A stretch of 24,000 nucleotides of DNA from Vicinamibacterales bacterium (lineage in GTDB: Bacteria > Acidobacteriota > Vicinamibacteria > Vicinamibacterales > CAVVIG01), in the NCBI GenBank assembly GCA_035259385.1, contig DATFWL010000550.1, forward strand, positions 18,787 to 42,786, written 5' to 3'. Within the stretch, counting starts at the first letter, position 1, and each line of letters starts with the position of its first letter. The translations under genes and the position numbers were made by a program. A model generated the notes under the pieces. It made no database searches. It saw only the letters and a list, made by a program, of their open reading frames with translations, and had not been told where the DNA came from. Below, piece by piece: positions 1 through 24,000 of this stretch.

Positions 1-5
1 GCCCA

Positions 6-4867: not shown

Positions 4868-4874
4868 GCCCGGT

Positions 4875-7945: not shown

Positions 7946-8431
7946 ATGCGTATTGCACTGACCGTGGCGTTGCTGCTCGTTCCTGTCCTCGCGTTCGCGC
8001 AGGCGCGCGCGCCGCAGGTGAAGCGGACGAACCCGCCGGCGCTGTCCAAGCCGACCGGATACACACACATCGTCGAAGTCACCGGCCCGGCGAAGACGAT
8101 CTACGTCTCGGGGCAGATCGCCTACGACAAGGACGGGAACCTGGTCGGCGCCGGCGATATGAAGGCACAGGCCGAGCAGGTGTTCAAGAACCTCGAGGCG
8201 GCGCTGACGGCGGCCGGCGCGAAGTTCTCGGATGTCGTCAAGATGAACAGCTACATCACGGACATGTCGAAGGTGCAGGCGGTCCGGGACGTGCGCACGA
8301 AGTACTTCGCGGAGACGACGCCGGCCAGCACGTTCGTCGAAGTGAAGGGCCTGGTCCGGCCCGAACTGCTGCTCGAGATCGAAGTCGTCGCCGTCGTCGC
8401 GGCGCCGGGAGGTACGGCGTCGTCGCGATAG
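7946..8431 (+). CDS. RidA / YjgF / L-PSP family protein with an N-terminal signal peptide
   Basis: The core blocks IYVSGQIAYDKDGNLVGAGDMKAQAEQVFKNLEAALTAAGA, VVKMNSYITDM and LLEIEVVAVV match the RidA/YjgF fold signature. The N-terminus MRIALTVALLLVPVLAFAQA is Sec-signal-like. An AGGAGG SD lies 6 nt upstream. Confidence 0.85.
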   Translation: MRIALTVALLLVPVLAFAQARAPQVKRTNPPALSKPTGYTHIVEVTGPAKTIYVSGQIAYDKDGNLVGAGDMKAQAEQVFKNLEAALTAAGAKFSDVVKMNSYITDMSKVQAVRDVRTKYFAETTPASTFVEVKGLVRPELLLEIEVVAVVAAPGGTASSR

Positions 8432-10886: not shown

Positions 10887-11462
10887 TCAGAAGCCGCAAT
10901 ACATGTCGGGATCGATCCCCTTCTCCGCCCCCTCGATGGTGAACTCCATTTTGTAGTAACGGCCGATCGCTCGTCCGAGCGGCGTCTCGGAGCGGGCGAC
11001 GTACAACTTCGTCGTATCGTCGGCTGACTGCTCGACCTCCGTCGAAGGCACGGGGAATGGACGATACGCTGGCTCAAACCCGGGCGGCGTCGGGCACTGC
11101 GCGAAGTGCGGCGACGGCTTGATGTCAGTGATCCTGAACCTGCGCTCGCTCCACCAGACAGCCTTCTGTTTCTGATCGTAGGAGAGCGTCAGGATCGTTT
11201 CCGGATGAGTGTCGTGGACATGCGGATGCTCGTGGAGCTTCTTGCCGACGCAATGCCACGGTTTTCCGCCGAACACGACGATGTCGGTCGGCCGCGCCGT
11301 CGCGCATTGTTTTGCGGCCTCATCGAGCTGCTGATCGCTTGGGCCCTTCGATGACACCGTGCCAATGGCCTCGGTTGGCTCGACGAAGATGATGTGGACG
11401 GGCACATCTCCCGTGGTCCTGGACTCGGGTCCCGCCGACGTCTGAGTTGCTGTTTCAGCCAT
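10887..11462 (-). CDS. Hypothetical cytoplasmic protein (191 aa), His-rich patch and 4 Cys; probably co-transcribed with the upstream Ser/Thr kinase
   Basis: ATG start with a GGGAGGGG SD 3-4 nt upstream, only 25 nt after the kinase stop codon. No signal peptide. It contains LHEHPHVHDTHPE and ends in MYCGF. I recognise no family. Confidence 0.55.
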   Translation of the reverse strand: MAETATQTSAGPESRTTGDVPVHIIFVEPTEAIGTVSSKGPSDQQLDEAAKQCATARPTDIVVFGGKPWHCVGKKLHEHPHVHDTHPETILTLSYDQKQKAVWWSERRFRITDIKPSPHFAQCPTPPGFEPAYRPFPVPSTEVEQSADDTTKLYVARSETPLGRAIGRYYKMEFTIEGAEKGIDPDMYCGF

Positions 11463-11487: not shown

Positions 11488-14109
11488 CTATTTCTCTGAC
11501 GTCGGCAGGCGTAAATCGTTCCGCACCGAATCGAGCTCCACCCAGTCGTGGATCTCCGCGGGCGTCAGGCCGTGGCTGATCGCCCGCGCGAGCCAGTCGA
11601 GGGCGGCGGCGCGATCTCCGACATCCATCCACACCACTGCGCCGAAGGCGAGCACGTGCGGATCGGCCACGTCCGGGGGCAACCGGTTCATCTCGTCACG
11701 CGCTTTCGCCTTTTCGCCGGTCTTCGCGTAGAACGCCGCGAGGCTGATCCGCGCCTCGATGTCGGCGGGATTGACCGAGAGATCCTGCGACGCCAGGGCG
11801 ATCGCCTGCGCGTACAGCGCGTTGGCCTGGTCACGCTTGCCGGCCAGGTAGGAAGCGCGCGCCATGCCGCCCACCACGATGTAGCCGTCGGGGCCGACGC
11901 GGCGGGCTGCCGCGAACTGCTCGATCGCCTCGTCGAAGCGGCGGAGCTTCGACAGCGTCGAGGCCCAGTTCGAGTAGGCAGCGACGCTGGGGGCGAGCGC
12001 GACCGATTTGCGACATGCGGCGATCGCCTCGTCGTAGCGGCCGATCGATCCGTAGAGGCCGCCGAGAGTGGCGTAGACGCGCGCGTTGTCTGGCGTCAGC
12101 GCGGCCGCGATCTCGTACTCGCGCACGGCGTCGGCATACCGTGCGTGTTCGCGGTAGAACGTGCCGAGCCAGACGTGCGTCGCCCAGTACTGCGGCCGCA
12201 GCGCGATCGCGCGGCGGTAGGTGGCTTCCGCCTCCGCGTTGGCGCCCTGGCGCGCCTGCGCGCGGGCCAGGCCGAGGGTTGCTTCGTCGCTGGTCGGCTC
12301 GCGGTCGACTGCCCGCTGGAACTCGCCGGCCGCGACGTCGTACGCGCCGGTGCCGAGCGCGATCGTACCAAGGCAGACGTGCGAGGCCGGCAGTTCGCCA
12401 TCGAGCGTTGCCGCCTGCGCGCACGAGGCGCGTGCGTCGTCGGCATGACGCGCCTGATGCGAGGCCTCGAACTTCTGCCACAGCGCCTGGCCGCGCGCGG
12501 CGTACGCTGCTGCGAACCGGGCGTCGAGCGCGATCGCGCGATCGAGCAGATCGATGGCGGCGTCGACGTTCTCCGGATGCTGGTACTCGAGCAGGCGACC
12601 GCGCGCCTCGAGGTAGAGGTCGAGCGCGCCAGGCGCTCGCGTGCCGCTCGCGCGCAGCGCCTCGCGCTCCGCCGGATCGAGCCGCAGCGCGAGCGCTGAT
12701 TCCGCCCAGGTCGCGACGCGATCCTGGAGGTCGAACGGATCGCCGGCAGCGGCGGTGGTCGAGAAGCCGTCGATCTGCCGCAGCGTGGCGGCGTCGACGA
12801 ACACGTAGTTGATCCGCAGCATGTCGCCGGCGCGGACGATCGAACCGTCGAGCACGATCGTCGCGCCCAGTTCGCGCCGCGCCTGCGCGGCATCGACGAC
12901 GTTGCGGCGGCGTGCTTCGAGCGTGGACGTGATCTGTATGCCGCGTCGGCTGGCGAGCGGCGTCATCTTCGCGCTCAGCGTGTCCGTGAGGCCGTTGCAG
13001 TAGGCCTCGGCCACGGCGTCGCCGCTGCCGCGGCAGGGGAGAATGACGAGGTTGCGAGGCTCGACGTGCGCCGCCGTGACACCGGACCGGCGAGCGGTGC
13101 CGTTGTCTGGCGCCTGCCTCCACAGCCACGCCGACGCGCCAACAGTCGCAAGAATGAGCGCCGCGGCGGCGGTGGCCAGCCTGCGTCGACCGGAGGGCGG
13201 CGGCGGGTCGACGGTGTGTGGACCGCCGGCTGCCCACTCGAGCTCGCGCGAAAGATCGGCGGCGTCCTGCCACCGCTTGTCCGGATCCTTGGCGAGCGCC
13301 GTGGCCACGATGCGCTCGACCGACGCCGGCGTGTCCGGCCGCAGCGCCGCGATCGGCGGCGGATCCTCGGTCATGATCGCCGCGATCAGGCTGGCCTGAC
13401 TCGCGTGCGTGAACGCGCGTCGGCCGGTGATCATCTCGTAGAGGATCAATCCGAGTGCGTAGATGTCGGTGCGCGCATCGACCGTCCGTCCCGCCAGTTG
13501 CTCGGGCGACATGTAGGCGATCGTGCCAATCAGCGTCCCTTCAGGGCTGAGGCCGTCGATCGTCGTCTCGTCGTTCGGCGGCGATTCCAGAAGAGTACGG
13601 TCGCGGAGCTTCGCGAGACCGAAATCGAGCAGCTTGACGCCCGATTCGGTCAGCATCACGTTGCTCGGCTTCAGGTCGCGGTGAATGATCCCTTCGCGGT
13701 GGGCGCGCGCCAGCGCCCCCGCCAGCGCGACGCCGTGCCGCAGCGACTCGCGAAGCGGCATCGGCTCTCGGGCGAGGCGCGTCGCCAGCGTTTCGCCCTC
13801 GAGATACTCCATGACCAGGAACTCGGTGCCGCCGTCCTCGCCGACGTCGTAGAGCGTGCAGATGTGCGGGTGGTTCAGGCGGGCGATCGCGCGCGCTTCG
13901 CGTTCGAAGCGCTGCCGGCGTCCCGGCCGTTCGGCGCCATCGGCGGCGAGGACCTTGATCGCGACCGTGCGGCCGACGCGGGTGTCGACGGCGCGGTAGA
14001 CCTCGCCCATCCCGCCCCGGCCGAGCAGGGCGATCACCTCGTACGGCCCCAGACGAGCGCCGTTTGGCAGAGCCACGGGGAAGCTCTGATTATGCGGCGT
14101 TGCCCACAC
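11488..14109 (-). CDS. Membrane-anchored Ser/Thr protein kinase with extracytoplasmic TPR repeat domain
   Basis: Hanks kinase motifs are present: GRGGMGEVY, AIKVL, HRDLKPSNVML, DFGLAK and SPEQ. A single TM segment follows (LATAAAALILATVGASAWLW), then a long C-terminal run of TPR-like repeats. The start is GTG 14109 with no clear SD, so it is approximate. Confidence 0.9.
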   Translation of the reverse strand: MWATPHNQSFPVALPNGARLGPYEVIALLGRGGMGEVYRAVDTRVGRTVAIKVLAADGAERPGRRQRFEREARAIARLNHPHICTLYDVGEDGGTEFLVMEYLEGETLATRLAREPMPLRESLRHGVALAGALARAHREGIIHRDLKPSNVMLTESGVKLLDFGLAKLRDRTLLESPPNDETTIDGLSPEGTLIGTIAYMSPEQLAGRTVDARTDIYALGLILYEMITGRRAFTHASQASLIAAIMTEDPPPIAALRPDTPASVERIVATALAKDPDKRWQDAADLSRELEWAAGGPHTVDPPPPSGRRRLATAAAALILATVGASAWLWRQAPDNGTARRSGVTAAHVEPRNLVILPCRGSGDAVAEAYCNGLTDTLSAKMTPLASRRGIQITSTLEARRRNVVDAAQARRELGATIVLDGSIVRAGDMLRINYVFVDAATLRQIDGFSTTAAAGDPFDLQDRVATWAESALALRLDPAEREALRASGTRAPGALDLYLEARGRLLEYQHPENVDAAIDLLDRAIALDARFAAAYAARGQALWQKFEASHQARHADDARASCAQAATLDGELPASHVCLGTIALGTGAYDVAAGEFQRAVDREPTSDEATLGLARAQARQGANAEAEATYRRAIALRPQYWATHVWLGTFYREHARYADAVREYEIAAALTPDNARVYATLGGLYGSIGRYDEAIAACRKSVALAPSVAAYSNWASTLSKLRRFDEAIEQFAAARRVGPDGYIVVGGMARASYLAGKRDQANALYAQAIALASQDLSVNPADIEARISLAAFYAKTGEKAKARDEMNRLPPDVADPHVLAFGAVVWMDVGDRAAALDWLARAISHGLTPAEIHDWVELDSVRNDLRLPTSEK

Positions 14110-14120
14110 AGCCGAGTGAA

Positions 14121-14157
14121 AAAGAAGAAGGGCGCGACCGCGTGAGCGATCGTGCCC
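14121..14157 (-). terminator. Intrinsic terminator for the radical-SAM gene (minus strand): imperfect GC hairpin followed by a T-rich tract
   Basis: The plus strand reads aaagaagaa-gggcgcgaccgcgtgagcgatcgtgccc. On the minus strand the hairpin is followed by ttcttcttt. A near-identical hairpin occurs at 17131-17161. Confidence 0.55.
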
Positions 14158-14199: not shown

Positions 14200-16314
14200 T
14201 TACACGACCGGCTTGTGCAGCACCGGCGCGGGCTCCTCGGTCTTCTTCTTCCCACCGAGCCCCTGAATCTGCAGCGTCGGCTGCTCCTTGAGCACGTGCT
14301 GCCGATAGAGCCTGGCCATCTCCTCGTTATAGGCCGCGTCCTTCGCCGTCTCCTCGGGCGTCTTGTGCTGGCGCGCCTTCAGCTTCTCCTCGCGCGCGTT
14401 CTTCGCGATGCCGCGGTCGTCGAGATCCGTCTGCGCGCCGGCGCGGACCGCCTCCTCGTTCAGCTTCAGCGAATGCGCGGTGGACGACAGCGGCACCGCC
14501 TTGCCGCCGGCGAAGATCTCGTGGCGGCCATGCTCCTCGTACCACCGGGTGAGCGTCGCCGTCATGTGCATCTTCTCGATGATGTTGCGCCAGCCGATTC
14601 CCGTGTTGTACGCGCAGAACGAAATCTCGCCCTGCTGGGTGGCGTACGGGATGATGCACATCTCGGTGCGGCGGAAGTCGTAGTTGAAGAGATCCTGGAA
14701 CCACATGCCGGCGATGAAGAGGAAGTTCCAGCGATCGGCGCGGCGCTTCTCGATGTCGGCGGACGTACGATCGCCCTCGACCTTGCCGTAACCGCCCGAC
14801 TGCGCCTTCTTCGTCGCGCCGAACGTCTTGTCGAACTTCTTCAGCAGGTCGCTGAGCTTGAAGTGTGTCGGCGACTGGAACGGATCGTAGTTGCGGACGA
14901 CCGCGAGGGCGAGCCCGAGGACCGACAGGAACTTGCCGCGCGCGGCGTCGTTGATCTGCGCGAGATCCTTGGCGAGCCGCTCGGCCTTCAAGAACGCCGT
15001 CACCGGGACCGCTTCCTTCGTCTCCTTGTCGATCATCAGGCCCATGCCGACGCCGCAGTTCGGGTGGCAGCCGCAGGTGAGCTGGCCCCACTGCGCGTCC
15101 GGTCCGTGGACGACGTCCGCCCAGTCGGTGAAGGTGCCCATGAACGAGATCGGGAACCAGTCGCGCGCCGGCTCGCCGAGTCCCGTCTGGTTCTTCACGT
15201 CGTGCGCCAGGTGCGACAGCGTGTAGCGCTGCGCCGCGCGCCGCTCGGGCGTCACCTCTTCGTCGCGCCCGGTGAAGCTCACCGGCTGGAACGACAGGAA
15301 GTTGATCTTCTTCGGGTTGTCGAGCGCGAACTCGATGATCCGCCCGACCTGCTCGTTGTTCACGCCGTTCACGATCGTGACGACCGGCACGATGTCCACG
15401 CCGGCCGAGTGCAGGTTCTCGATCGCGCGCAGCTTGACGTCGAACAGGTTGCCGACGCGGCGGTGCGAGTTCGCGGCGTTGCCGATGCCGTCGAACTGCA
15501 GGTACGCGTAGCGCAGGCCCGCCTCGGCCGCCGCCTTCGCGAACTCGGGGCTCTTGGCGAACTCGATGCCGTTGGTCGCCGCCTGCACCGAGTTGTAGCC
15601 GACCTTGCGCGAGTAGCGCACGGCGTCGAGGAACCACGGCGAGATCGTCGGCTCGCCGCCGGAGAACTGCACCGACATCTGCCGCTTCGGCTTGATGCTG
15701 ATCGCGTTGTCCAGCACCATCTTGATGTCGTCCCAGCCGAGCTCGTGGACGAATCCCACCTGGTTCGCGTCCATGAAGCACGGGTCGCACATCATGTTGC
15801 AGCGGTTGGTGAGATCGACGGTGAGCACCGAGCCGCGCCCGTGCTTGATCGTGCTCGAGCCGTGGTTGTGGAGCGTTTCGTCGTTGTGCGCGCGGATGTC
15901 ACGCCCGGGAAAGACATCCTCGAGATGTTTGAAGAACGCGGTGTCGATCGCCATCACGTCCTCGAAGTGGCCGTGGATGAGGCAGTCCTTCACCATCAGA
16001 ATCTTGCCGTCGCGTTCGAGAATCGTCGCCTTGATCTCGCCGACCTTTTCGTTGAGGAGGACGCTCACGTCCTTCTTGCCGTCGAGAATCGCCTGACGCG
16101 CCTCGCGCACGCAGATCGGACACAGCGAGTCGGTCTCGCGCGGCCATCCGAGCGGGGGCTTCGTCTTCTCGTACGATTTCAGCAGCGGCTTGTCGGACCA
16201 GGCGGGTGTGAAGGACGGATTTTGTTTGATCTTGTTCAAACCGTTGAAGAGCGTCCATGCGCCGTTGGCCGCGATCGACAGGCCCTTCTCGACGTACTTG
16301 ATTGGCTTGTGCAT
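14200..16314 (-). CDS. Large radical-SAM enzyme resembling archaeal tetraether lipid synthase (Tes / GDGT-MAS, COG1964-type), copy 1
   Basis: 704 aa. N-terminal Cys pair SLCPIC...KDCLIHGHF. Radical-SAM CX3CX2C in VDLTNRCNMMCDPCFMDAN. Further blocks are VQFSGGEPT, QAATNG, YLQFDGIG, LSFQPVSFTGRDE, TCGCHPNCGVG (auxiliary-cluster-like) and the C-terminal block GMWFQDLFNYDFRRTEMCIIPYATQQGEISFCAYNTG. The order of these blocks matches my recollection of MJ0619-type proteins. CDS and radical-SAM calls are high confidence; the specific function is not. Confidence 0.88.
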   Translation of the reverse strand: MHKPIKYVEKGLSIAANGAWTLFNGLNKIKQNPSFTPAWSDKPLLKSYEKTKPPLGWPRETDSLCPICVREARQAILDGKKDVSVLLNEKVGEIKATILERDGKILMVKDCLIHGHFEDVMAIDTAFFKHLEDVFPGRDIRAHNDETLHNHGSSTIKHGRGSVLTVDLTNRCNMMCDPCFMDANQVGFVHELGWDDIKMVLDNAISIKPKRQMSVQFSGGEPTISPWFLDAVRYSRKVGYNSVQAATNGIEFAKSPEFAKAAAEAGLRYAYLQFDGIGNAANSHRRVGNLFDVKLRAIENLHSAGVDIVPVVTIVNGVNNEQVGRIIEFALDNPKKINFLSFQPVSFTGRDEEVTPERRAAQRYTLSHLAHDVKNQTGLGEPARDWFPISFMGTFTDWADVVHGPDAQWGQLTCGCHPNCGVGMGLMIDKETKEAVPVTAFLKAERLAKDLAQINDAARGKFLSVLGLALAVVRNYDPFQSPTHFKLSDLLKKFDKTFGATKKAQSGGYGKVEGDRTSADIEKRRADRWNFLFIAGMWFQDLFNYDFRRTEMCIIPYATQQGEISFCAYNTGIGWRNIIEKMHMTATLTRWYEEHGRHEIFAGGKAVPLSSTAHSLKLNEEAVRAGAQTDLDDRGIAKNAREEKLKARQHKTPEETAKDAAYNEEMARLYRQHVLKEQPTLQIQGLGGKKKTEEPAPVLHKPVV

Positions 16315-16321
16315 GCGCTAA

Positions 16322-16327
16322 ATCTTA
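16322..16327 (-). promoter_or_regulatory. Candidate -10 hexamer TAAGAT (minus strand) placed 7 nt upstream of the radical-SAM ATG (possible leaderless transcript)
   Basis: The minus strand reads gtgctcTAAGATttagcgcATG, with no SD-like purine run. Confidence 0.3.
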
Positions 16328-16459
16328 GAGCACGAATGGCTTACGACGATTACATTTCCAGCGAACGGTCCCCTCGCGCAGCGAACGGGCACTAGCCGAC
16401 ACCGGACGGTCACAGCACACCCGCCCCCACCTGCGCGAACGAAATAATTTGCAGGAAGT

Positions 16460-16473
16460 TGCATTTAAATGCA
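16460..16473. promoter_or_regulatory. Perfect 14-bp palindrome TGCATTTAAATGCA in the divergent radical-SAM / cupredoxin intergenic region; candidate operator
   Basis: Read directly. It lies in the only AT-rich patch of the 211-bp intergenic region, preceded by a further TTGCA half-site (16449-16453). It overlaps the possible -35 (TTGCAT, 16459-16464) of the cupredoxin promoter. Confidence 0.4.
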
Positions 16474-16483
16474 CGAGCTGTCA

Positions 16484-16489
16484 TAGAAT
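16484..16489 (+). promoter_or_regulatory. Candidate -10 hexamer TAGAAT for the cupredoxin-like gene (leadered, with SD)
   Basis: The sequence reads tgtcaTAGAATgagg. TTGCAT lies 19 bp upstream, a long spacer. A strong AAGGAGG SD (16514-16520) lies 5 nt before ATG 16526. Confidence 0.35.
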
Positions 16490-16525
16490 GAGGCCGCTCA
16501 ACCACAAATTCATAAGGAGGACGTA

Positions 16526-17200: not shown

Positions 17201-20119
17201 TCAGAAGTTCATCTGCACGCCGAACCGGATGTAACGGCCGTCGACAATCTGCGTTGGCGTCATCCACAGGTTCGTGCCCGCGTTCGCATACGTCTCGTTG
17301 ACGCGGACCACGGTCCCGGCGTTGAACAGGTTGAAGACGTCCATGAACCCCTGCATCTTCAGCCGATCGACCCTGAACGTCTTGCCCAGTCGCATATCCA
17401 GCCGGTTCTGATAGTCGAGGAACATCGTGCTCGGCTGGACCAGGTTGATGATGCTCGACGCGGCGCCGGTGGTCGAACCGATGATCGGCCGTCCCGCGAC
17501 GACCGACGTCACCGTGTAGTTCGCACTGACGTTTGGCCCGGGAATCGACGCAAACGTCCCGCTCAGCTGGATATCGTACGGGAAGGAATACGCCGCGGAT
17601 GCCTTGAACGATGTGCGGAACAGGCCGGCAAGTCCTACACCGGCGGCAGGCAGCGTTGAATCGCAGAACCGGACCCGGTTCGGGTTGTCGCGCGCGCTGC
17701 CTACCGGGTCGCCATTGGTGACGTTGTCGCCGTCGCACGTCGTCGAGACGCGCCGGTCGGTGGTGACACCGCCGAACACGAGATACTTCGCGCCGCGCGC
17801 GTTCACCGTGAATTCCACGCCGTCGTAATTGGTCTTGTTCTGGGTCGAGTAGGTGATCAGGTTGTCGGTCGCGATGCCCACCTTGCCGGGGTTCAACGTG
17901 TACATCGTGATCGGCTGTCCCGACAGCGCCAGCCGCGTGTCGGTCGGCGTGTTGATGGTGTACGTCGTCCAGTCGCCCGCAGTCAGATTCTGATTGTCGG
18001 TGGCCTGAATGTTGTAGTACTCGCGGTGATAGTAGCCGGCGGTCGCCGACAGCCGCGGCCGGAGCTCGCGCTGCAGCACGGCGCTGTATTCCCAGTTGTA
18101 GCCGCGCGGCAGATTGGGATCCGGTCGCGACGTGATCTGACCGAAGTTCGACGTGCCGCCGATCACCTCGTTCACCTGAATCGAGCCGTCCGGGTTCAGG
18201 ATCGTGTTGTCACGGTTCGCGTCGTTCCAGGTGCGCATCTGCGTCGCGCCGTTCATGCCGTTGAACGTCTGCGCGAAGCCGGCCGCCTGCGACGCGACGT
18301 ACTTGCCGACGTTCCCCTTCACGGCGGTTTTGCCGTCGCCGGTCAGATCGAACGACGCCGCAAAGCGGACCGCCCAGTCGTTCCAGTTCGGCACGTTGGG
18401 AATCTCGGGGAAGTTTCGCGGGCCGATCCAGGTCGACGCGGCCGACGACTCCGCCGGGATCGACGCGTTGAAGTGCTCGAAGCGCGCGCCGTAGTTGAGC
18501 GTCAGCCGGTTCATCGTCCAGGCGTCCTGCGCGTAGGCGCCCAAGTCGCTGTTGACGTTCTGGATGCCCGTCGTCGGCGTGTTGTAGACGACGGCCTGGA
18601 ACGGGAAGTCGGTGAGCGGAATATTCGTGCCGGGAACGACGGTGTTCACCGTGATGAGGGTGTTGATGTCGGCCTTTTCGATGAAGGTTCGCGAATTCTG
18701 TCCCCAGAGGTCCGTCATCCCGACCTTGATCGCGTGCGAGCCGGTCACGTAGCTCGCCGACGCGAGGATGTTGTAGTCCTTGGTCGTGCTCGAATACTCC
18801 GGGATGAGGTAGCCGCAGCGGCCGCTCAACAGGCCAGTGGATCCGTTGAGGTGCGCCAGCGTCGTCCCGCCGGGGGCCGTCCGCGAGCAGTCCTGCTCGT
18901 AGGGCTGGTCGTAGTAGGCCAGGCCAGCTTCGAACAGCAGCTTGTTCGAATGCGCGCGCGTCCATCGCACCTGCGGGATCCAGCCGACGCCGAAGGCGTC
19001 GGTCGACGCCTCCGGCGTCGTCGTCGCGAGGGTGTTGAAGCCGTTGAAGAACTCCCCGTTGTACTGCTTTTCGATGTAGGCGCGAATCTTGTCCTTGCTC
19101 GTCGCCGCCCACGTCACGCGCCCCACCGCACTGTAATTGCCCATGAGGTTGCGGTAGGCCTGGCTGCCGTCGGGGAATTTCGCGCTCGGGACGTAGACCT
19201 TCGTGTCCTGATACTTGTACGTGAAGTAGAACCACACCTTGTCCTGCATCAACGGTCCGCCGAACGACGGGTTGATCTGCCAGTCGTAGGCGGTGCCGGC
19301 GATCAGGACGCCTGCTGCCTTCACGGCGTCCGAGCGGTTGTCGGCCTGGAGGCCACTCCCCTGGTACTGCGCGAACAGTGATCCGGAAAACTTGTTGCCG
19401 CCGTCTTTCGGGACCTGGTTGACGCGGATGCCGCTGCTCTGGATTTCGGCCGACTGCGATCCCGTCGTGTAGCTCAGCTCCTGCACGGCCGCATCGTTCA
19501 TGTAGAAGCCGCTGAACTGGCCGCTGCCGCACAGGTTGTTCACCCGCAGACCGTCGATCGCCATCGTGAAGTCGGTCGTCGAGGATCCGTGCACGGTGAG
19601 GTTGTATTGCCCCAGGACGAACGGCGTCACCGTGGTACCGGGAATCAGCAGCGCGCGCGCCGGCGTATTGCGGATCGGCGTCGGAATCGCGTCGAGCACG
19701 TCGCGGTTCGCGACGATCGTCGACTGGTTGTTGATCACGTCGACCGCCGGCGTCTCGCCGGTGACGGTCAGCGTTTCTTCCACCGCGCCGACCGACAGTT
19801 CCGCGGTCACCTGCGCGGTGAAGGTGCCTTCGAGGACGATGTCGGCTCGCTTGACGGTCTTGAAGCCGGCGAGCGTGAACGACACCTGATATGTCCCCGG
19901 AACGAGGTCGACGATCTTGTACTGACCGGCCGCGTCGGTGATCACGGAGCGCGACTTTTCAATCAGTGCGGGGCTCGAGGCTTCGACGGTCACTCCGGGC
20001 AGGACAGCGCCAGTGCCGTCCCTGACGACGCCCGCGATCGCCGCTTGCGCATGGCTGGTTGCGGGCAACAGCAGCACGGCAGCCGAAAGCATGGCCGCAC
20101 AAAGCAGGACTCGACGCAT
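17201..20119 (-). CDS. TonB-dependent outer-membrane receptor with CarboxypepD_reg N-terminal domain (second copy in window)
   Basis: Start moved to ATG 20119 (MRRVLLCAAMLSAAVLLLPATSHAQA), with a GGAGGGAG SD 6 nt upstream. The N-terminal block AGVVRDGTGAVLPGVTVEASS...AGQYKIVDLVPGTYQV is CarboxypepD_reg-like. The barrel ends in a terminal Phe (GVQMNF). Confidence 0.9.
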   Translation of the reverse strand: MRRVLLCAAMLSAAVLLLPATSHAQAAIAGVVRDGTGAVLPGVTVEASSPALIEKSRSVITDAAGQYKIVDLVPGTYQVSFTLAGFKTVKRADIVLEGTFTAQVTAELSVGAVEETLTVTGETPAVDVINNQSTIVANRDVLDAIPTPIRNTPARALLIPGTTVTPFVLGQYNLTVHGSSTTDFTMAIDGLRVNNLCGSGQFSGFYMNDAAVQELSYTTGSQSAEIQSSGIRVNQVPKDGGNKFSGSLFAQYQGSGLQADNRSDAVKAAGVLIAGTAYDWQINPSFGGPLMQDKVWFYFTYKYQDTKVYVPSAKFPDGSQAYRNLMGNYSAVGRVTWAATSKDKIRAYIEKQYNGEFFNGFNTLATTTPEASTDAFGVGWIPQVRWTRAHSNKLLFEAGLAYYDQPYEQDCSRTAPGGTTLAHLNGSTGLLSGRCGYLIPEYSSTTKDYNILASASYVTGSHAIKVGMTDLWGQNSRTFIEKADINTLITVNTVVPGTNIPLTDFPFQAVVYNTPTTGIQNVNSDLGAYAQDAWTMNRLTLNYGARFEHFNASIPAESSAASTWIGPRNFPEIPNVPNWNDWAVRFAASFDLTGDGKTAVKGNVGKYVASQAAGFAQTFNGMNGATQMRTWNDANRDNTILNPDGSIQVNEVIGGTSNFGQITSRPDPNLPRGYNWEYSAVLQRELRPRLSATAGYYHREYYNIQATDNQNLTAGDWTTYTINTPTDTRLALSGQPITMYTLNPGKVGIATDNLITYSTQNKTNYDGVEFTVNARGAKYLVFGGVTTDRRVSTTCDGDNVTNGDPVGSARDNPNRVRFCDSTLPAAGVGLAGLFRTSFKASAAYSFPYDIQLSGTFASIPGPNVSANYTVTSVVAGRPIIGSTTGAASSIINLVQPSTMFLDYQNRLDMRLGKTFRVDRLKMQGFMDVFNLFNAGTVVRVNETYANAGTNLWMTPTQIVDGRYIRFGVQMNF

Positions 20120-20344
20120 GACGGTCTCCCTCCGAGGTTGTAAGTGAATGTAGACCGGCACGGTACGGTGCGGCTGGTTGCGTGTCAAGGCGAAACTGAG
20201 ACCGAAACGAATAGTTTCTGGCGGAGATCCGGCCCGCCGGACCGGATGTCTGCCGGGGCGGCGCACGCCGAGCCACGCACGTGAGCGGTGGAGTGGATCG
20301 CGACGCTGCGCGCGTAGGGACGGCGTCGAGCGTCAGGTCCGACG

Positions 20345-21094
20345 CTAAATCCCGAGCCGATCCTTCAGCGCGCGCACGCGATCCCGCGAGACACTCAGCT
20401 CGGTCTTGGCTTCATCCTTGAGCCGGACCAGCACGCCGCCGTCGACGGCCGGGAAGAGCTCCTGCACGAACGGGATGTTGACGATCGTCGCCCGGTGGAT
20501 GCGCGCGAAGCGCCGCGGGTCGAGCCGTTCCTCGAGCTCGGTCAGCGTGAAGTCGATCACGTGCTCGCGGCCGCTGGCGCAGGCGAAGGTGAGCTTGTCC
20601 TTCGAAAAGAAGTGGCTCACGCGCGCGACGTCGAGGATTGTCGTGCGTTCTCCGACCCGCGATGCGATCCGCTCGAGTCTGCGGGCCGGCGACAGCGCCG
20701 CGGCCAGCTCGCGCGCGAGCGCCCGGACGTCGTGCGGCGGGTGCGGCGCCAGCCGCTCGGCCTTGTCGAGCGCGCGCGCCAGCCGCTCGGGATCGATCGG
20801 CTTGAGCAGGTAGTCGATGGAGTTCACCGCGAACGCGTCGATGGCGTAGCGGTCGTACGCGGTCGTGAATATGACGGTGACGTCGCGGTCGAGCCGTTCG
20901 AGCAGCTGAAATCCGGTGAGCCCCGGCATCTGGATGTCGAGGAACAGGATGTCGACGTCGTGGGCTTGCAGGAACGCGAGCGCGATCTCGGGGTCCGTTG
21001 ACGATCCGACGATCGTCACGCGCCCGTTCGCGTCGAGCAGCCGCTGCAGTCGCTGCACCGCCAGCTTTTCGTCGTCGAGAATGTAGACGCGCAT
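20345..21094 (-). CDS. Two-component response regulator, LytR/AlgR (LytTR DNA-binding) family
   Basis: The receiver domain reads MRVYILDDE...DILFLDIQMPGLTGFQLLERL. The C-terminal LytTR-like domain includes FFSKDKLTFACASGREHVIDFTLTELEERLDPRRFARIHRATIVN. The start lies 3 nt after the kinase stop codon. Confidence 0.9.
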   Translation of the reverse strand: MRVYILDDEKLAVQRLQRLLDANGRVTIVGSSTDPEIALAFLQAHDVDILFLDIQMPGLTGFQLLERLDRDVTVIFTTAYDRYAIDAFAVNSIDYLLKPIDPERLARALDKAERLAPHPPHDVRALARELAAALSPARRLERIASRVGERTTILDVARVSHFFSKDKLTFACASGREHVIDFTLTELEERLDPRRFARIHRATIVNIPFVQELFPAVDGGVLVRLKDEAKTELSVSRDRVRALKDRLGI

Positions 21095-21097
21095 CGA

Positions 21098-22201
21098 TCA
21101 GGGGTTCGTGGCCGCTCCCGCCGGCACCTCGATCGCGACCGACGTCCTGCCAGCGCGGCTCTCGACCGCGAGTGACGCTCGATCGCCGAACAACATCTGC
21201 AGACGCCGGTCGAGCAGATCCAACCCGTGGCCGGGCGGCCGCGCCGACGCCTCGAACCCGGGTCCGTCGTCCTCGACGGTGATCCGGAGCCGGCGTTCTC
21301 CAGCCGCCGCGCGCACATGGATCGACGCTCCGTCGCGGCGCGGCGAGACCGCGTACTTGACGCTGTTCTCCACCAGCGTCTGCAGCGCCATGCGCGGCAC
21401 CGGCAGCCGCCCCGCGCCGTCGACCACCTCCAGCGAGTAGCGCAGCCGATCGCCGAAGCGCACCCGCTCGATATCGAGATAGGCACGGACGATTTTCAGT
21501 TCTTCTTCGAGCGGGACGATCGGTGTCGCCGTGCTGTCGAGCGCCGATCGCAGTAGCGACGCCAGCTGCCCGATCATCTTCTCGGCGCCGGCCGGGTCGT
21601 CGTGCACGAGCGCCGCGATCGCGTTCAGCGTGTTGAACAGGAAATGCGGCTGCACCCGCGACTCGATCGACGCGAGCTGCGCTTCGGCGGCGAGGCGCCG
21701 CGCCTCGGCCTCGTCGCGCTCCTTGGTCCGCAGCGCGACAGTCGCCTCATCCAGGCGCCGCCGCATGGTCTCGACGACGGTGACGAAGATTCCGAAGATC
21801 AGCGTGATGACGATCGACGCTTTCAGCGAGCCGGCCATCCAGGTGGCGACGATGCCACCGCCGTGCAGATAGCCGACCGCGGCAAGGATCAGGATCGTCA
21901 CGAAGCTGCCGGCCAGCGCGATGCCGACCATCGTCGCGATCAGCACGATCCAGTCGAGCGGGAACCGGTAGCGGCACGACACCGCGCGGGCGACGCGCGG
22001 CATGACGACGCCGAGCATGGGGCCGATGACGAACGAGAAGAGCAGCGAGACGGCGAAGGCCTCGACGAGCCGCCGCGGCGGCGTGCGCAGGCTGACGCCG
22101 CCATAGAAGACCGTCACGACGATCGAGGCGGCGATGCTGGCGCCGGTCACGCGCGCCCAGTACACGCGCGAGAGGCGCCGCGGCCGCTCGGACTTGCCCA
22201 T
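21098..22201 (-). CDS. Membrane sensor histidine kinase, LytS/YehU type (His_kinase PF06580-like plus HATPase_c)
   Basis: About 4-5 N-terminal TM segments and a coiled linker. The family-diagnostic phospho-acceptor block is RVQPHFLFNTLNAIAALV. ATPase motifs follow (LVENSVKYA, DDGPGF, GHGL). Confidence 0.88.
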   Translation of the reverse strand: MGKSERPRRLSRVYWARVTGASIAASIVVTVFYGGVSLRTPPRRLVEAFAVSLLFSFVIGPMLGVVMPRVARAVSCRYRFPLDWIVLIATMVGIALAGSFVTILILAAVGYLHGGGIVATWMAGSLKASIVITLIFGIFVTVVETMRRRLDEATVALRTKERDEAEARRLAAEAQLASIESRVQPHFLFNTLNAIAALVHDDPAGAEKMIGQLASLLRSALDSTATPIVPLEEELKIVRAYLDIERVRFGDRLRYSLEVVDGAGRLPVPRMALQTLVENSVKYAVSPRRDGASIHVRAAAGERRLRITVEDDGPGFEASARPPGHGLDLLDRRLQMLFGDRASLAVESRAGRTSVAIEVPAGAATNP

Positions 22202-22214: not shown

Positions 22215-22284
22215 CGCGAGACGAGCTCCGGACGTCGAGATTGGCGGATGAAGGGTGTGTTTTTCCGATGCAGGGGAACCCGCG

Positions 22285-24000
22285 TCACCCGATGGTCACC
22301 GGCTCGACCGCGGCCGCCGCCGCCACCGACGCCGGGCCGGGGACCGCCTTCGGCGTCCACTGAACGAGCCGACCGTCTCTCGGAATGTGCAGCGCAACCG
22401 GCCGCGCGTATGCGGGCATCGGCACGATCTTCCTGAGGTTGGCGTAGACCGGATGCCTGCCGTGCTCCCTGTACCAGTCCGCGACCTTGGCGCTCTGATA
22501 CATGTTCTCGACGATCTGCCGCCAGCCGACGCCGGTGTTGTAGGCGCAGAACGAGATCTCGCCCATCTGCGTCGCGTAGGGAATGATACACATCTCGGTG
22601 CGGCGGAAGTCGTAGGTCCAGAGATCCTGGAACCACATGCCGGCGACGAACATCAGCAGCCACTCGTCGCCCTTGCGATTGTCGTTGTCGCGCGCCCCGA
22701 GCCGGCCGCCCAGCTGTCCGCCGCTCTGCTTGTCGAACTTGTGCAGGAGATCAATCAGGCGGAAGCCGGCCGGCGCCTTCAGCGGGTGGTAGTTGCGGAG
22801 CAGGCTCAGCGCGCTCTGCACGATCGTGAGCGCGCGCCCGCGGGCGGCATCGGCAATCGCGGTCGCGTCGCTGAGCACCTGCTCGACGTTCAGGAACTCG
22901 GAGAGCGGCGCCCACTCCTTCGTCTTCTTGCTGACCATGAAGCCCATGCCGACGCCGCAGTCGGGGTGACAGCCGCAGCTGAGCGATCCCCACTGGGCGC
23001 CCGGGCCTCTCATCAGGTCGGTGACCTGCGACATCGTGCTCGCCGCGGACAGCGGAAACCAGTCGCGCAGCGGATCGGTGACGCCGGTCTGGCGCTTCAT
23101 GTCCTCGGCGAGGTGCGACAGCGTGTAGCGCTTGCGGTGGCGCTCGTCGTCGCCGATCGCCTCGTCGCGGCCGGTGAACGACACCGGCTGGAACGACACG
23201 AAGCTCACCTTGTCGCAGTTCTGCAGCGCGAACTTGACGATCGGTCCCACCTGATGATCGTTGACGGTGTTGACGATCGTCACGACGAGGCAGATGTCGA
23301 TGCCGGCGGCGTGGAGGTTCTCGATCGCCCGCAACTTGACGTCGAACAGGTTGCCGACCTTGCGGTGGGCGTTGGCGTCCTCGCCGATGCCGTCGAACTG
23401 CAGGTAGGCGATGCGCATCCCGGCGTCGTGCGCCTGCCGCGCGAACTCCGGATCCTGCGCGAAGCGGATGCCGTTGGTCGCCGCCTGGACGCTGAAGTAG
23501 CCGATCGCGCGCGCGTAGCGGACCGCCTCGAGGAAGATCGGCGAGATGGTCGGCTCGCCGCCCGAGAACTGCACGGTCATCTGCCGCCGCGGCTTGATGC
23601 TGATCGCGTCGTCGAGCAGCTTGCGGACGTCGTCGAAGGTCAGCTCGTGGACGTAGCCGACCTGGTTGGCGTCCATGAAGCACGGATCGCACATCATGTT
23701 GCAGCGGTTGGTCAGGTCGATCGTCAGCACCGCGCCGCGCCCGTACCTGATCGACGACGTGCCGTGGTTGTGCAGCGTGTCGGTGATCGCGGGAAAGTCG
23801 CGGCCGGGAAAGAGCGATTCGAGACGGCGGAGAAATGCGGGATTCACCGCGAGCGTGTCGACGAAGGTGCCGTGGCGCGGGCACGTCTTCTCGACGATCA
23901 CTTTGCCGTCGCGCTCGAGGATCTGCGCCTTGATCTCGCCGACGTGATCGTCGACGAGCGACTCGATCGCCTGCTCGCCGGCGAGAATGCGCGCGCGCGC
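22285..24000 (-). CDS. Large radical-SAM enzyme, Tes / GDGT-MAS-like, copy 2 (5-prime end lies beyond the window)
   Basis: The frame stays open and homologous to copy 1 up to the window edge: ARARILAGEQAIESLVDDHVGEIKAQILERDGKVIVEKTCPRHGTF aligns with REARQAILDGKKDVSVLLNEKVGEIKATILERDGKILMVKDCLIHGHF. The GTG at 23901 in the ORF track is therefore internal. All copy-1 blocks are present: TNRCNMMCDPCFMDAN, VQFSGGEPT, YLQFDGIG, SFQPVSFTGRDE, SCGCHPDCGVG and GMWFQDLWTYDFRRTEMCIIPYATQMGEISFCAYNTG. Confidence 0.88.
   Translation of the reverse strand, partial: ARARILAGEQAIESLVDDHVGEIKAQILERDGKVIVEKTCPRHGTFVDTLAVNPAFLRRLESLFPGRDFPAITDTLHNHGTSSIRYGRGAVLTIDLTNRCNMMCDPCFMDANQVGYVHELTFDDVRKLLDDAISIKPRRQMTVQFSGGEPTISPIFLEAVRYARAIGYFSVQAATNGIRFAQDPEFARQAHDAGMRIAYLQFDGIGEDANAHRKVGNLFDVKLRAIENLHAAGIDICLVVTIVNTVNDHQVGPIVKFALQNCDKVSFVSFQPVSFTGRDEAIGDDERHRKRYTLSHLAEDMKRQTGVTDPLRDWFPLSAASTMSQVTDLMRGPGAQWGSLSCGCHPDCGVGMGFMVSKKTKEWAPLSEFLNVEQVLSDATAIADAARGRALTIVQSALSLLRNYHPLKAPAGFRLIDLLHKFDKQSGGQLGGRLGARDNDNRKGDEWLLMFVAGMWFQDLWTYDFRRTEMCIIPYATQMGEISFCAYNTGVGWRQIVENMYQSAKVADWYREHGRHPVYANLRKIVPMPAYARPVALHIPRDGRLVQWTPKAVPGPASVAAAAAVEPVTIG

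What the first reader, a model, noticed from the sequence alone, without database searches (positions are those of the whole stretch)
14200..16314. Bacterial homologue of the archaeal tetraether-lipid synthase (Tes / GDGT-MAS radical-SAM family)
The 704-aa protein is not a generic radical-SAM enzyme. It carries, in order: an N-terminal CPxC...CxxHG metal-site-like pair, the CX3CX2C SAM cluster (TNRCNMMCDPC), GGEPT, ATNG, YLQFDG, FQPVSFTGR, a CGCHPxCG cysteine cluster, and a C-terminal block MWFQDLFNYDFRRTEMCIIPYA...ISFCAYN. This is the block order I remember for COG1964 / MJ0619-type proteins. That family contains the enzyme shown in 2022 to join two archaeal lipid tails into GDGTs (Tes; GDGT-MAS). 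Bacterial homologues have been suggested as candidates for iso-diabolic acid / branched-GDGT synthesis, but to my knowledge none has been demonstrated biochemically. The source genes of brGDGTs remain an open question in geochemistry, so an intact and apparently independently transcribed copy in an Acidobacteriota-like genome is a good experimental candidate.
Basis: partly seen in the sequence, partly recalled or inferred. Interest (0 to 1): 0.78.

Follow-up and report, generated by a model that had tools for sequence, protein, structure and literature searches.

The report
Divergent bacterial tetraether-synthase-like radical SAM enzyme
This soil acidobacterial gene encodes a true but cofactor-reduced relative of the archaeal enzyme that welds two lipid tails into membrane-spanning lipids; it is a reasonable, already-published and still untested candidate for making the bacterial brGDGT lipids used as climate proxies.

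Summary
A 704-aa ORF lies at 14200-16314 (-), and all ten listed motifs are at exact positions. Homology to archaeal Tes/GDGT-MAS is solid: PDB 7TOL at E=1.6e-60, and an AlphaFold model (pLDDT 85) superposing at TM 0.88. It is not a canonical Tes. It scores 303 bits against NCBIfam's Tes model (cutoff 450). It lacks all four ligands of the N-terminal auxiliary [4Fe-4S] cluster. It carries extra N- and C-terminal extensions. It keeps the rubredoxin-like site, the radical SAM cluster, the C-terminal catalytic cluster ligands, Met439/Tyr459 equivalents and the SAM-binding residues. It belongs to an Acidobacteriota-wide 'A-type' clade, 75-91% identical across four classes. By similarity tier, this clade matches the second S. 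usitatus homologue (Acid_2410) and the only homologue of the brGDGT producer Edaphobacter aggregans. The brGDGT hypothesis for bacterial Tes homologues has been in print since 2022 and was untested in everything I could read up to mid-2026. In relatives, B terminates a conserved ~20-gene fatty-acid-synthase-like lipid cluster. Verdict: real, moderately interesting, a variant of a known kind.

The parts
14200..16314 (-). A-type Tes/GDGT-MAS-like radical SAM gene (704 aa), the finding itself
16144..16314 (-). N-terminal extension (residues 1-57; helix 3-28), absent from GDGT-MAS and conserved in the no-N-cluster bacterial clades
   Evidence: Alignment; near-invariant positions; pLDDT 84-95
15949..16143 (-). 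Rubredoxin-like metal site (C65, C68 ... C111, H114) with a 22-residue insertion relative to GDGT-MAS C9/C12/C33/H36
   Evidence: PF23545 hit; alignments; 100% conserved in the A and B clades
15265..15828 (-). Radical SAM core (residues 163-350) with C172-X3-C176-X2-C179 and SAM-binding residues F180, R285, Q343, S346, R350. The ~10-residue deletion that removes the [Fe4S4]N ligands lies just upstream, around residues 148-160
14605..15087 (-). C-terminal auxiliary-cluster domain (residues 410-570): C420, C553, C567 and M537 match GDGT-MAS C338, C455, C470 and M439; Y557 matches Y459; plus clade-invariant extra C414 and C416
14203..14532 (-). C-terminal extension (residues 595-704), helical and charged, last ~36 residues disordered; absent from GDGT-MAS
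16315..16525 (.). 211-bp divergent intergenic region upstream of A, the presumed site of A's own promoter (none detected by consensus scan)
22285..24000 (-). Paralogue B (B-type Tes-like; 571 of 641 aa in the window, N-terminus cut by the window edge); 60% identical to A with the same cofactor-ligand pattern
20345..22201 (-). LytS-type histidine kinase (21098-22201) and LytTR response regulator (20345-21094), co-directional with B (gaps 83 and 3 bp); syntenic with B in L084 and L085
17201..20266 (-). CarboxypepD_reg / beta-barrel outer-membrane protein, co-directional, between the B unit and A; syntenic in L084 and L085

Best explanation
The gene encodes a radical SAM enzyme of the Tes/GDGT-MAS superfamily. 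It belongs to a bacterial, Acidobacteriota-wide 'A-type' subfamily with three predicted metal sites instead of four: a rubredoxin-like iron, the SAM-cleaving [4Fe-4S] cluster, and the C-terminal auxiliary [4Fe-4S] cluster. Most likely it uses GDGT-MAS chemistry. SAM is cleaved to a 5'-deoxyadenosyl radical, which abstracts a hydrogen from the terminal carbon of a lipid tail. The tail radical is parked on a sulfide of the C-terminal cluster. A second SAM-derived radical on a second tail attacks it and forms a C(sp3)-C(sp3) bond. The expected substrates are bacterial iso-branched acyl or alkyl glycerolipids, giving iso-diabolic-acid or brGDGT-type membrane-spanning lipids. Shown here: homology, fold, and retention of catalytic ligands and SAM-binding residues. 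Inferred: the substrate, the product, and that electrons reach the clusters without the missing N-terminal cluster.
For: Sequence and fold: 7TOL E 1.6e-60; best NCBIfam hit is Tes; model pLDDT 85.4 and pTM 0.85; Foldseek 7TOL E 1e-32, TM 0.88, rmsd 3.3 A over 551 columns. Catalytic residues conserved in A and B and in 28/28 A-clade and 27/27 B-clade sequences: radical SAM cysteines, C420/C553/C567/M537, Y557, and SAM binders F180/R285/Q343/S346/R350. Met439 and Tyr459 are invariant in 1000 archaeal homologues, and Tyr459 lies 4.2 A from the substrate carbon (PMC9433317). Strong purifying selection: 75-91% identity across Vicinamibacterales, Bryobacterales, Terriglobia and Blastocatellia in at least 597 species genomes. 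From general knowledge these are subdivisions 6, 3, 1 and 4, the ones reported to make iso-diabolic acid (PMC13159169). By similarity tier (about 30-32% identity, E about 1e-61 to MA_1486), the A-type matches the only Tes homologue of the brGDGT producer E. aggregans (PMC8941075) and Acid_2410 (714 aa) of S. usitatus (PMC10087280 Table S5). Paralogue B is embedded in a conserved fatty-acid-synthase-like lipid cluster with lipid exporters, so this clade works on fatty-acyl lipids.
Against: No experiment exists on any bacterial homologue in the literature I could read. Only 3 of 14 iso-diabolic-acid-producing cultured Acidobacteria carried a Tes homologue under stringent criteria, so iso-diabolic acid can be made without this family. 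The A-type lacks the [Fe4S4]N ligands and scores below the curated Tes cutoff. Some genomes carry both a canonical Tes homologue and an A-type (S. usitatus; L041 and L055), which argues for non-identical functions. A itself has no conserved lipid-gene neighbours: the commonest neighbour family occurs in 11 of 80 loci. The assignment of Acid_2410 and the E. aggregans protein to the A-type rests on length, identity and E-value, not on their sequences (one search failed to retrieve them).
Confidence: 0.5

Rival explanations
1. A-type enzymes perform a different radical C-C or C-H modification on membrane lipids than the primary tail-to-tail coupling. Possibilities include closing the second bond (trialkyl to dialkyl tetraether), acting on ester-bound rather than ether-bound lipids, cross-linking, or ring formation. 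Canonical Tes homologues would do the main coupling where both are present.
For: Canonical and A-type copies coexist in S. usitatus and in L041 and L055. The A-type forms a separate clade with a different cofactor set and clade-invariant extra cysteines C414 and C416. S. usitatus makes trialkyl tetraethers and cyclised brGDGTs.
Against: By similarity tier, E. aggregans has only one homologue, of A-type, yet makes brGDGT-Ia. Archaeal Tes alone makes both C-C bonds. Active-site Tyr, Met and the C-cluster ligands are unchanged.
Confidence: 0.22
2. A acts, like paralogue B probably does, on the product of the adjacent flexirubin/aryl-polyene-like type II FAS cluster. That product would be a specialised, possibly outer-membrane, lipid or pigment rather than bulk membrane glycerolipids.
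For: In the window lineage, A lies about 6 kb downstream of B and its cluster. The B cluster encodes ketosynthases, ketoreductase, ACP, dehydratase, FadD-like ligase, LpxL-like acyltransferase, GT2, HpnN/BstA-like MMPL and LolA2_flexi-like proteins.
Against: In 77 of 80 A-type loci there is no second Tes-like gene or cluster within 10 kb. The A-type occurs in classes where the best 120 B-type matches (79-100% identity) give no sign of B. A is separated from the B unit by an opposite-strand gene.
Confidence: 0.13
3. It is a pterin or cofactor C-methyltransferase (class D radical SAM methylase, '7,8-dihydro-6-hydroxymethylpterin dimethyltransferase'), as many database names say.
For: JGI gives this name to many close homologues. 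The Pfam zinc-ribbon domain carries the HMPTM name. GTP cyclohydrolase I (FolE) lies in the window at 1141-1746 and within about 1 kb of the A-type gene in a few Vicinamibacterales loci.
Against: The name derives from MJ0619, whose methylase activity could not be reproduced and which was shown to be GDGT-MAS with a hydrophobic lipid pocket (PMC9433317). FolE linkage is seen in only 6 of 80 loci, all close relatives. Acidobacteria are not known to make methanopterin (general knowledge).
Confidence: 0.04
4. It is an inactive or regulatory relic of a Tes-like enzyme that has lost catalytic competence along with the N-terminal cluster.
For: Related lineages have clearly decayed. The T. roseus clade lost the C-cluster ligands and Tyr, and P0145 lost the radical SAM motif.
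Against: A and B keep every catalytic ligand in all 55 sequences checked. There is 75-91% identity across classes and the highest GC3 in the window. All of this points to an active, strongly selected enzyme.
Confidence: 0.03

Closest known systems
GDGT-MAS / Tes (M. jannaschii MJ0619, PDB 7TOL/7TOM; M. acetivorans MA_1486; NCBIfam NF045702)
   Same: Same overall fold (TM 0.88). Same rubredoxin-like C-X2-C...C-X2-H site, CX3CX2C radical SAM cluster, C-terminal auxiliary cluster ligands with the labile Met, active-site Tyr and SAM-binding residues. No transmembrane helix.
   Different: Only 31% identity and 303 bits against a cutoff of 450. The whole [Fe4S4]N ligand set is deleted. There is a 57-residue N-terminal extension, a 22-residue insertion in the rubredoxin domain, and a 110-residue C-terminal extension. 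Two extra invariant cysteines give CxCHPxCG; some canonical members have them too. Bacterial host with fatty-acyl, sn-glycerol-3-phosphate lipids.
Canonical acidobacterial Tes homologues (S. usitatus Acid_5929, Ca. K. versatilis homologue; here L041 14337-16019 and L055 18163-19872)
   Same: Same phylum and superfamily. Same hypothesis (brGDGT or iso-diabolic tetraester synthesis). Also untested biochemically.
   Different: The canonical copies are about 545-570 aa, keep C73/C77/C80/H83, are 45-47% identical to MJ0619 (about 460 bits), and cluster with the archaeal enzymes. A is only 33-34% identical to them and sits in a separate clade.
S. usitatus Acid_2410 (Q025C7, 714 aa) and the single E. 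aggregans Tes homologue
   Same: Same length class and the same similarity tier to archaeal Tes (30-32% identity, E about 1e-61). Bryobacterales and Acidobacteriaceae MAGs carry A-type orthologues 76-79% identical to A. These are very probably orthologues.
   Different: Orthology is inferred, not verified on the sequences. Those organisms are cultured with known brGDGT production; the window's organism is an uncultured Vicinamibacterales MAG.
Mss, bacterial membrane-spanning lipid synthase (Thermotoga, Thermoanaerobacter; Sahonero-Canavesi 2022)
   Same: A radical SAM enzyme proposed, and shown by heterologous expression, to couple two fatty-acid tails into (iso-)diabolic acids. This is the same reaction class expected for A.
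   Different: Only remotely related to Tes according to its discoverers. Restricted to anaerobes and reported absent from Acidobacteria. Not compared by sequence here.
TrsS radical SAM (seleno)protein (NCBIfam NF045646)
   Same: Second-best curated family; shares the N-terminal half.
   Different: 205 bits against a cutoff of 490; the match covers only residues 93-378.

Membership tests
Tes / GDGT-MAS (canonical tetraether synthase) | CX3CX2C radical SAM [4Fe-4S] motif | tested here: met
   C172/C176/C179 align with C98/C102/C105
Tes / GDGT-MAS (canonical tetraether synthase) | Rubredoxin-like iron site C9-X2-C12-X20-C33-X2-H36 | tested here: met
   C65/C68/C111/H114. The spacing is X42 instead of X20 because of a 22-residue insertion. 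PF23545 scores 44 bits against a cutoff of 27
Tes / GDGT-MAS (canonical tetraether synthase) | N-terminal auxiliary [Fe4S4]N cluster on C73, C77, C80 and a conserved His | tested here: not met
   All four positions are lost in a ~10-residue deletion in A, B, P0121, P0135 and 77 orthologues. They are present in all full-length canonical representatives
Tes / GDGT-MAS (canonical tetraether synthase) | C-terminal auxiliary [Fe4S4]C cluster with labile Met439 | tested here: met
   M537 matches M439. C420/C553/C567 match C338/C455/C470, the only C-terminal cysteines conserved across canonical members. The ligand identity of these cysteines is my inference from conservation
Tes / GDGT-MAS (canonical tetraether synthase) | Active-site Tyr459 and SAM/5'-dA binders F106, R210, Q268, S271, R275 | tested here: met
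   Y557, F180, R285, Q343, S346, R350
Tes / GDGT-MAS (canonical tetraether synthase) | Score at or above the curated NCBIfam NF045702 cutoff (450 bits) | tested here: not met
   303.1 bits for A and 289.9 for B. Canonical representatives score 474-593 bits (P0233 432)
Tes / GDGT-MAS (canonical tetraether synthase) | Full-length structural similarity to 7TOL | tested here: met
   Foldseek E 1.2e-32, TM 0.88 normalised to the target, rmsd 3.3 A over 551 columns
Tes / GDGT-MAS (canonical tetraether synthase) | Catalyses tail-to-tail C(sp3)-C(sp3) coupling of lipid chains | not testable with these tools
   Needs an enzyme assay or genetics; none was found for any bacterial homologue
Tes superfamily (PF23545 zinc ribbon + PF04055; InterPro IPR034474 'class D' family) | Both Pfam domains above gathering score, in this order | tested here: met
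   the same architecture is seen in all homologues
SPASM/twitch peptide maturases and cofactor radical SAM enzymes (NirJ, MoaA, PqqE, SkfB and others) | Score at the family cutoff and a C-terminal SPASM domain | tested here: not met
   24-67 bits against cutoffs of 180-650, covering only the radical SAM core. Folds: MoaA TM 0.52, SkfB TM 0.45
TrsS radical SAM (seleno)protein | NCBIfam NF045646 cutoff of 490 bits | tested here: not met
   205.3 bits, N-terminal half only
Mss (bacterial membrane-spanning lipid synthase) | Sequence homology to T. maritima / T. ethanolicus Mss | not tested
The authors report no mss homologues in Acidobacteria and only a remote relation to Tes

The most novel reading that the evidence does not exclude
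A and B define a bacterial branch of the Tes superfamily that lacks the [Fe4S4]N cluster. B would be a dedicated tailoring enzyme of a conserved ~20-gene type II FAS-like cluster, which also encodes an HpnR-like B12 radical SAM C-methylase, an HpnN/BstA-like MMPL exporter and LolA-like carriers. That cluster, together with the orphan A-type enzyme, could be the long-sought genetic basis for methyl-branched, membrane-spanning iso-diabolic/brGDGT-type lipids in subdivision-6 Acidobacteria, possibly destined for the outer membrane. The B12 enzyme would be a candidate for the C5/C6 methylations on which the temperature and pH proxies rest.
Probability: 0.15. Interest if true: 0.85.

Novelty: new variant of a known kind. 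Interest (0 to 1): 0.55.

Why it matters
brGDGTs are among the most used terrestrial palaeothermometers, yet their biosynthetic genes are unproven. Showing which Tes-like enzyme makes them would let source organisms be read from metagenomes and let the proxies be calibrated mechanistically.

This analysis sharpens the target list. 'Bacterial Tes homologue' covers at least three architectures:
- canonical, with four metal sites;
- A/B-type, with three metal sites;
- degenerate forms that lack the catalytic cluster.

Gene surveys that use a single BLAST cutoff mix or miss these. The A-type is the form conserved across acidobacterial subdivisions 1, 3, 4 and 6. By similarity tier it is the only form in E. 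aggregans, so it deserves testing alongside the canonical form. The lipid-cluster context of paralogue B offers an independent, testable handle.

Tried and rejected
- Exact-sequence contig look-ups for A and for full-length B found nothing on record, so the 85-kb source contig could not be read beyond the window.
- The first AlphaFold run, with a shallow 33-sequence alignment, gave pLDDT 59.5. It was replaced by an 89-sequence alignment spanning three clades, which gave pLDDT 85.4.
- The AFDB50 fold library was unavailable.
- A cluster-membership look-up of five Bryobacterales A-type orthologues did not retrieve the S. usitatus Ellin6076 entry, so orthology to Acid_2410 stays inferred.
- Table S21 of Sahonero-Canavesi et al. 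is not held, and Chen et al. 2025 (GCA) is not held.
- My first greedy ORF caller picked antisense shadow ORFs in this high-GC DNA. It was replaced by a GC3-filtered caller.
- Consensus promoter and terminator scans around A and an Rfam scan of the window found nothing.
- Neighbourhood clustering of 80 A-type loci found no conserved partner. The commonest neighbours (MsrPQ-like by my reading of the sequences, amidohydrolase, SDR, FolE) are lineage-specific synteny.
- The search seeded with the T. roseus homologue showed that clade is almost entirely metagenomic. It does not explain iso-diabolic acid in cultured subdivision-1 strains.
- Hydropathy and hydrophobic-moment analysis gave no transmembrane helix or strong amphipathic helix in the extensions.
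Full report
OBSERVATION

The window carries a 704-aa ORF at 14200-16314 on the minus strand. Its third-position GC is 0.93, the highest in the window. The slightly longer ORF on the opposite strand is a shadow typical of high-GC DNA. Pfam finds the Radical_SAM domain (residues 168-330) and the family-specific zinc ribbon PF23545 (residues 58-122), both above gathering score. The identical protein is deposited in NCBI as 'radical SAM protein [Vicinamibacterales bacterium]' from an 85-kb MAG contig. The 'Acidobacteriota-like' guess was therefore right.

HOMOLOGY TO TES / GDGT-MAS

The best solved structure by sequence is GDGT-MAS (7TOL), at E 1.6e-60 over residues 93-591. MoaA is next at 1e-5. 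The best curated family is NCBIfam 'tetraether lipid synthase Tes', but at 303 bits against a cutoff of 450. TrsS follows at 205 bits against 490. All SPASM and cofactor families hit only the radical SAM core, at 24-67 bits.

A first AlphaFold model from a shallow alignment was poor (pLDDT 59.5). It still ranked 7TOM/7TOL first. A second model, from 89 sequences of three bacterial clades, reached pLDDT 85.4 and pTM 0.85. It superposes on 7TOL with TM 0.88 and rmsd 3.3 A over 551 columns, E 1e-32. The next fold, MoaA, covers only the core at TM 0.52.

COFACTOR SITES, RESIDUE BY RESIDUE

Lloyd et al. (PMC9433317) describe four metal sites in GDGT-MAS:
- a rubredoxin-like iron on C9/C12/C33/H36;
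- [Fe4S4]N on C73/C77/C80 plus a His;
- the radical SAM cluster;
- [Fe4S4]C with a labile Met439.

Tyr459 lies 4.2 A from the substrate carbon. Met439 and Tyr459 are invariant in 1000 archaeal homologues.

I rebuilt MJ0619 residues 3-491 from the HMMER alignments and aligned it. The results for the window protein are:
- The rubredoxin site is kept (C65/C68/C111/H114), with a 22-residue insertion.
- The radical SAM motif is kept (C172/C176/C179).
- M537 and Y557 match Met439 and Tyr459.
- C420, C553 and C567 match C338, C455 and C470.
- C438 and C456 of MJ0619 vary even among canonical family members. The three conserved cysteines plus Met439 are therefore the probable [Fe4S4]C ligands. This is my inference.
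- The SAM and 5'-dA binders F106, R210, Q268, S271 and R275 are conserved.
- All four [Fe4S4]N ligands are missing, removed by a deletion of about 10 residues.
- The protein has a confidently folded 57-residue N-terminal extension and a 110-residue C-terminal extension.
- There is no transmembrane helix.

A DISTINCT CLADE, NOT A CANONICAL TES

An exhaustive search of 1.84 billion representatives finds 607 clusters (50% identity) at E<=1e-30. The full-length representatives fall into three groups:
- **Canonical forms** keep the [Fe4S4]N ligands, are 34-37% identical to A, and score 432-593 bits on the Tes model.
- **The group containing A and B**, with P0121, P0135 and 77 orthologues from named genomes, lacks the ligands and scores 290-414 bits.
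- **Degenerate relatives** go further. The Terriglobus roseus clade has lost the [Fe4S4]C ligands and the Tyr. P0145 has lost the radical SAM motif.

A neighbour-joining tree (no bootstrap) separates a 'no-N-cluster' superclade from the canonical clade. The canonical clade contains MJ0619 and the canonical acidobacterial copies.

A-type orthologues are 75-91% identical to A across Vicinamibacterales, Bryobacterales, Terriglobia/Acidobacteriaceae and Blastocatellia. All ligand positions are invariant in 28/28 A-clade and 27/27 B-clade sequences, including the two extra cysteines C414 and C416. This is an active, strongly constrained enzyme.

WHAT IS ALREADY KNOWN

- Zeng et al. 2022 reported 456 bacterial Tes homologues, including acidobacterial ones, and proposed a role in brGDGT synthesis.
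- Lloyd et al. 2022 noted bacterial homologues of unknown role.
- Chen et al. 2022 used a Tes homologue to pick S. usitatus, which then proved to make abundant brGDGTs. They recommended looking at subdivisions 4 and 6.
- Halamka et al. 2022 list two S. usitatus homologues: Acid_5929 (545 aa, 40.2% identity, E 1e-139 to MA_1486) and Acid_2410 (714 aa, 30.1% identity, E 4e-62).
- Zeng et al. also report that E. aggregans, a proven brGDGT producer, has a single homologue at 32% identity and E 4e-61.

In my data, canonical acidobacterial copies (second genes in L041 and L055) are 45-47% identical to MJ0619 at about 460 bits. A-type proteins are 30-31% identical at about 215 bits and about 700 aa long. 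I therefore infer that Acid_5929 is canonical, and that Acid_2410 and the E. aggregans protein are A-type. I could not verify this on the sequences.

Against the hypothesis, Sahonero-Canavesi et al. found Tes homologues in only 3 of 14 iso-diabolic-acid-producing Acidobacteria, and no Mss in that phylum.

As of 2025-2026, papers still say bacterial Tes function is unconfirmed. A 2025 GCA paper is cited as linking a Tes homologue to iso-diabolic tetraesters in K. versatilis. I could not read it, and the citing texts describe co-occurrence.

CONTEXT OF A

Upstream of A lies a 211-bp gap and then an opposite-strand gene, so A needs its own promoter. Downstream, a Ser/Thr kinase-TPR gene follows after 90 bp on the same strand. 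Consensus scans found neither promoter nor terminator. Across 80 loci the neighbours of A-type genes are not conserved; the commonest family occurs in 11 loci. No lipid gene accompanies A in general.

THE SECOND PARALOGUE AND ITS CLUSTER

It is 60% identical to A, has the same ligand pattern, and is cut by the window edge. Full-length B is 641 aa on the same NCBI contig. B-type proteins form their own widespread clade. B is 61-62% identical to A-type orthologues of every class, which points to an old duplication.

In all six loci fetched for B-type relatives, the gene sits directly downstream of a FadD-like AMP ligase within a conserved cluster. Centring a metagenome scan on the cluster's B12 radical SAM gene extended the view. 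The cluster encodes:
- two FabF-like ketosynthases;
- a FabG/FlxB-like reductase;
- an ACP;
- a polysaccharide-deacetylase-like protein;
- a 973-aa LolA_like protein;
- a PHP/CehA-like hydrolase;
- a LolA2_flexi-like carrier;
- an HpnR-like B12 radical SAM (211 bits, below the cutoff of 650);
- an HpnN/BstA-like MMPL transporter;
- a GT2 glycosyltransferase;
- an LpxL/PIM-type acyltransferase;
- YdjM;
- a DUF2062-methyltransferase;
- a FabZ/ApeI/ApeP-like dehydratase;
- the AMP ligase;
- the B-type enzyme.

Where contigs reach far enough, the ketosynthase is present in 25/25 loci, the reductase in 24/25 and MMPL in 24/28. Among the 7 loci that extend about 10 kb on the B side, B is visible in 4. 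In a fifth (L092) it lies just past the edge, because L092 is the same contig as L085, where B follows the ligase. L105 has a small unverified fragment compatible with B. L156 shows neither the ligase nor B.

Locus L084 is syntenic with the window: B 90.5%, kinase 83%, regulator 87%, outer-membrane protein 72.5%, small ORF 77%, A 94.5%. It shows the ligase and dehydratase just upstream of B. In the source genome the cluster should therefore begin right beyond coordinate 24000.

The gene content resembles flexirubin/aryl-polyene-type clusters. That comparison is from general knowledge plus the NCBIfam names. I found no paper describing a Tes-like enzyme in such a cluster. This is independent evidence that the no-N-cluster clade works on fatty-acyl-derived lipids. 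It also raises a rival reading in which the product is a specialised lipid or pigment rather than brGDGTs.

MECHANISM AND CONFIDENCE

The best-supported reading is a GDGT-MAS-type mechanism on bacterial lipid tails. It would proceed by SAM cleavage, hydrogen abstraction at a terminal carbon, capture on the C-terminal cluster, a second radical, and C-C bond formation.
- **Shown here:** family, fold, retained catalytic residues, conservation and phyletic spread.
- **Inferred:** substrate, product, and how electrons are delivered without [Fe4S4]N.

I put 0.5 on 'makes membrane-spanning iso-diabolic/brGDGT-type lipids'. I put about 0.22 on a different lipid-tail modification, about 0.13 on a role tied to the FAS-like cluster product, and a few percent on pterin methylation or inactivity.

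VERDICT

The finding is real and correctly placed in the Tes superfamily. It is a cofactor-reduced variant and not a canonical Tes. The idea of testing such genes for brGDGT synthesis has been in print since 2022. Its value lies in two things. The first is recognising the A-type as a separate, highly conserved acidobacterial form that should be tested in its own right. The second is the new lead from paralogue B's lipid cluster.

Noticed in passing
window 22285-24000 (-): A second Tes-like gene (B-type) is 60% identical to A and cut by the window edge; full length is 641 aa (P0281). It has the same ligand pattern (no [Fe4S4]N, CGCHPDCG) and defines its own widespread clade.
   Followed up: yes
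beyond window coordinate 24000; proxies L081-L087, L092, L105, L133, L143: B-type genes terminate a conserved ~20-gene type II FAS-like (flexirubin/aryl-polyene-like) lipid cluster. It includes an HpnR-like B12 radical SAM, an HpnN/BstA-like MMPL, LolA-like carriers, an LpxL-like acyltransferase, GT2, a FadD-like ligase, 2 ketosynthases, a ketoreductase and an ACP. No description was found in the searchable literature.
   Followed up: yes
window 20345-22201 (-) and 17201-20266 (-): A LytS-type histidine kinase, a LytTR regulator and a CarboxypepD_reg beta-barrel outer-membrane protein follow B co-directionally with short gaps (83, 3 and 78 bp). They are syntenic in L084 and L085. They could be an envelope-sensing unit linked to the lipid cluster.
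   Followed up: partly
P0136 (Terriglobus roseus DSM 18391, WP_014786616.1) and its clade: A related clade of ~620-aa proteins keeps the rubredoxin and radical SAM sites but has lost the C-terminal cluster ligands and the active-site Tyr. T. roseus is the only named isolate carrying it. It would be missed by the E<=1e-50 / >=30% identity criteria used in published surveys.
   Followed up: partly
P0145: This family member has lost the CX3CX2C radical SAM motif but keeps the C-terminal cysteines and Tyr. It is possibly a pseudo-enzyme.
   Followed up: no
L041 10001-12106 and 14337-16019; L055 10001-12106 and 18163-19872: Two Acidobacteriaceae MAGs carry an A-type gene and a canonical, N-cluster-bearing Tes homologue within 10 kb of each other.
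   Followed up: partly
window 1141-1746 (+); L006, L008, L009, L002, L016: GTP cyclohydrolase I (FolE) recurs near A-type genes in a few Vicinamibacterales loci, about 0.8 kb away in three of them. It is probably lineage synteny, but it echoes the old pterin-methylase annotation of the family.
   Followed up: partly
window 14215-16395 (+), 22255-24000 (+), 13066-14145 (+): Long antisense 'shadow' ORFs (up to 726 aa) lie opposite real genes. They are artefacts of about 65-70% GC and misled a length-based ORF picker.
   Followed up: yes
window 11488-14109 (-) and 10887-11462 (-): A Ser/Thr kinase with TPR repeats and a small ORF sit between A and the DUF2157 region. They are absent at that position in the otherwise syntenic L084, which suggests a local insertion.
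   Followed up: partly
(database names): The same protein families are variously named 'tetraether lipid synthase', '7,8-dihydro-6-hydroxymethylpterin dimethyltransferase', 'uncharacterized radical SAM' or 'hypothetical protein' by JGI, and just 'radical SAM protein' by NCBI. The annotation is inconsistent and partly outdated.
   Followed up: no
L003, L009, L015: MAGs labelled Betaproteobacteria, 'proteobacterium' and Bifidobacteriaceae carry A-type genes 83-91% identical to the Vicinamibacterales one. These are most likely mis-binned or mislabelled contigs rather than horizontal transfer.
   Followed up: no
window 3-422 (+), 1819-4752 (-), 4698-7112 (+), 7946-8431 (+), 8435-9373 (+): The other window genes are an ABA4-like protein, a TonB-dependent-receptor-like outer-membrane protein, an S9 peptidase with beta-propeller, RidA and DUF2157. 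None is lipid-related. Rfam found no RNA family in the window.
   Followed up: partly
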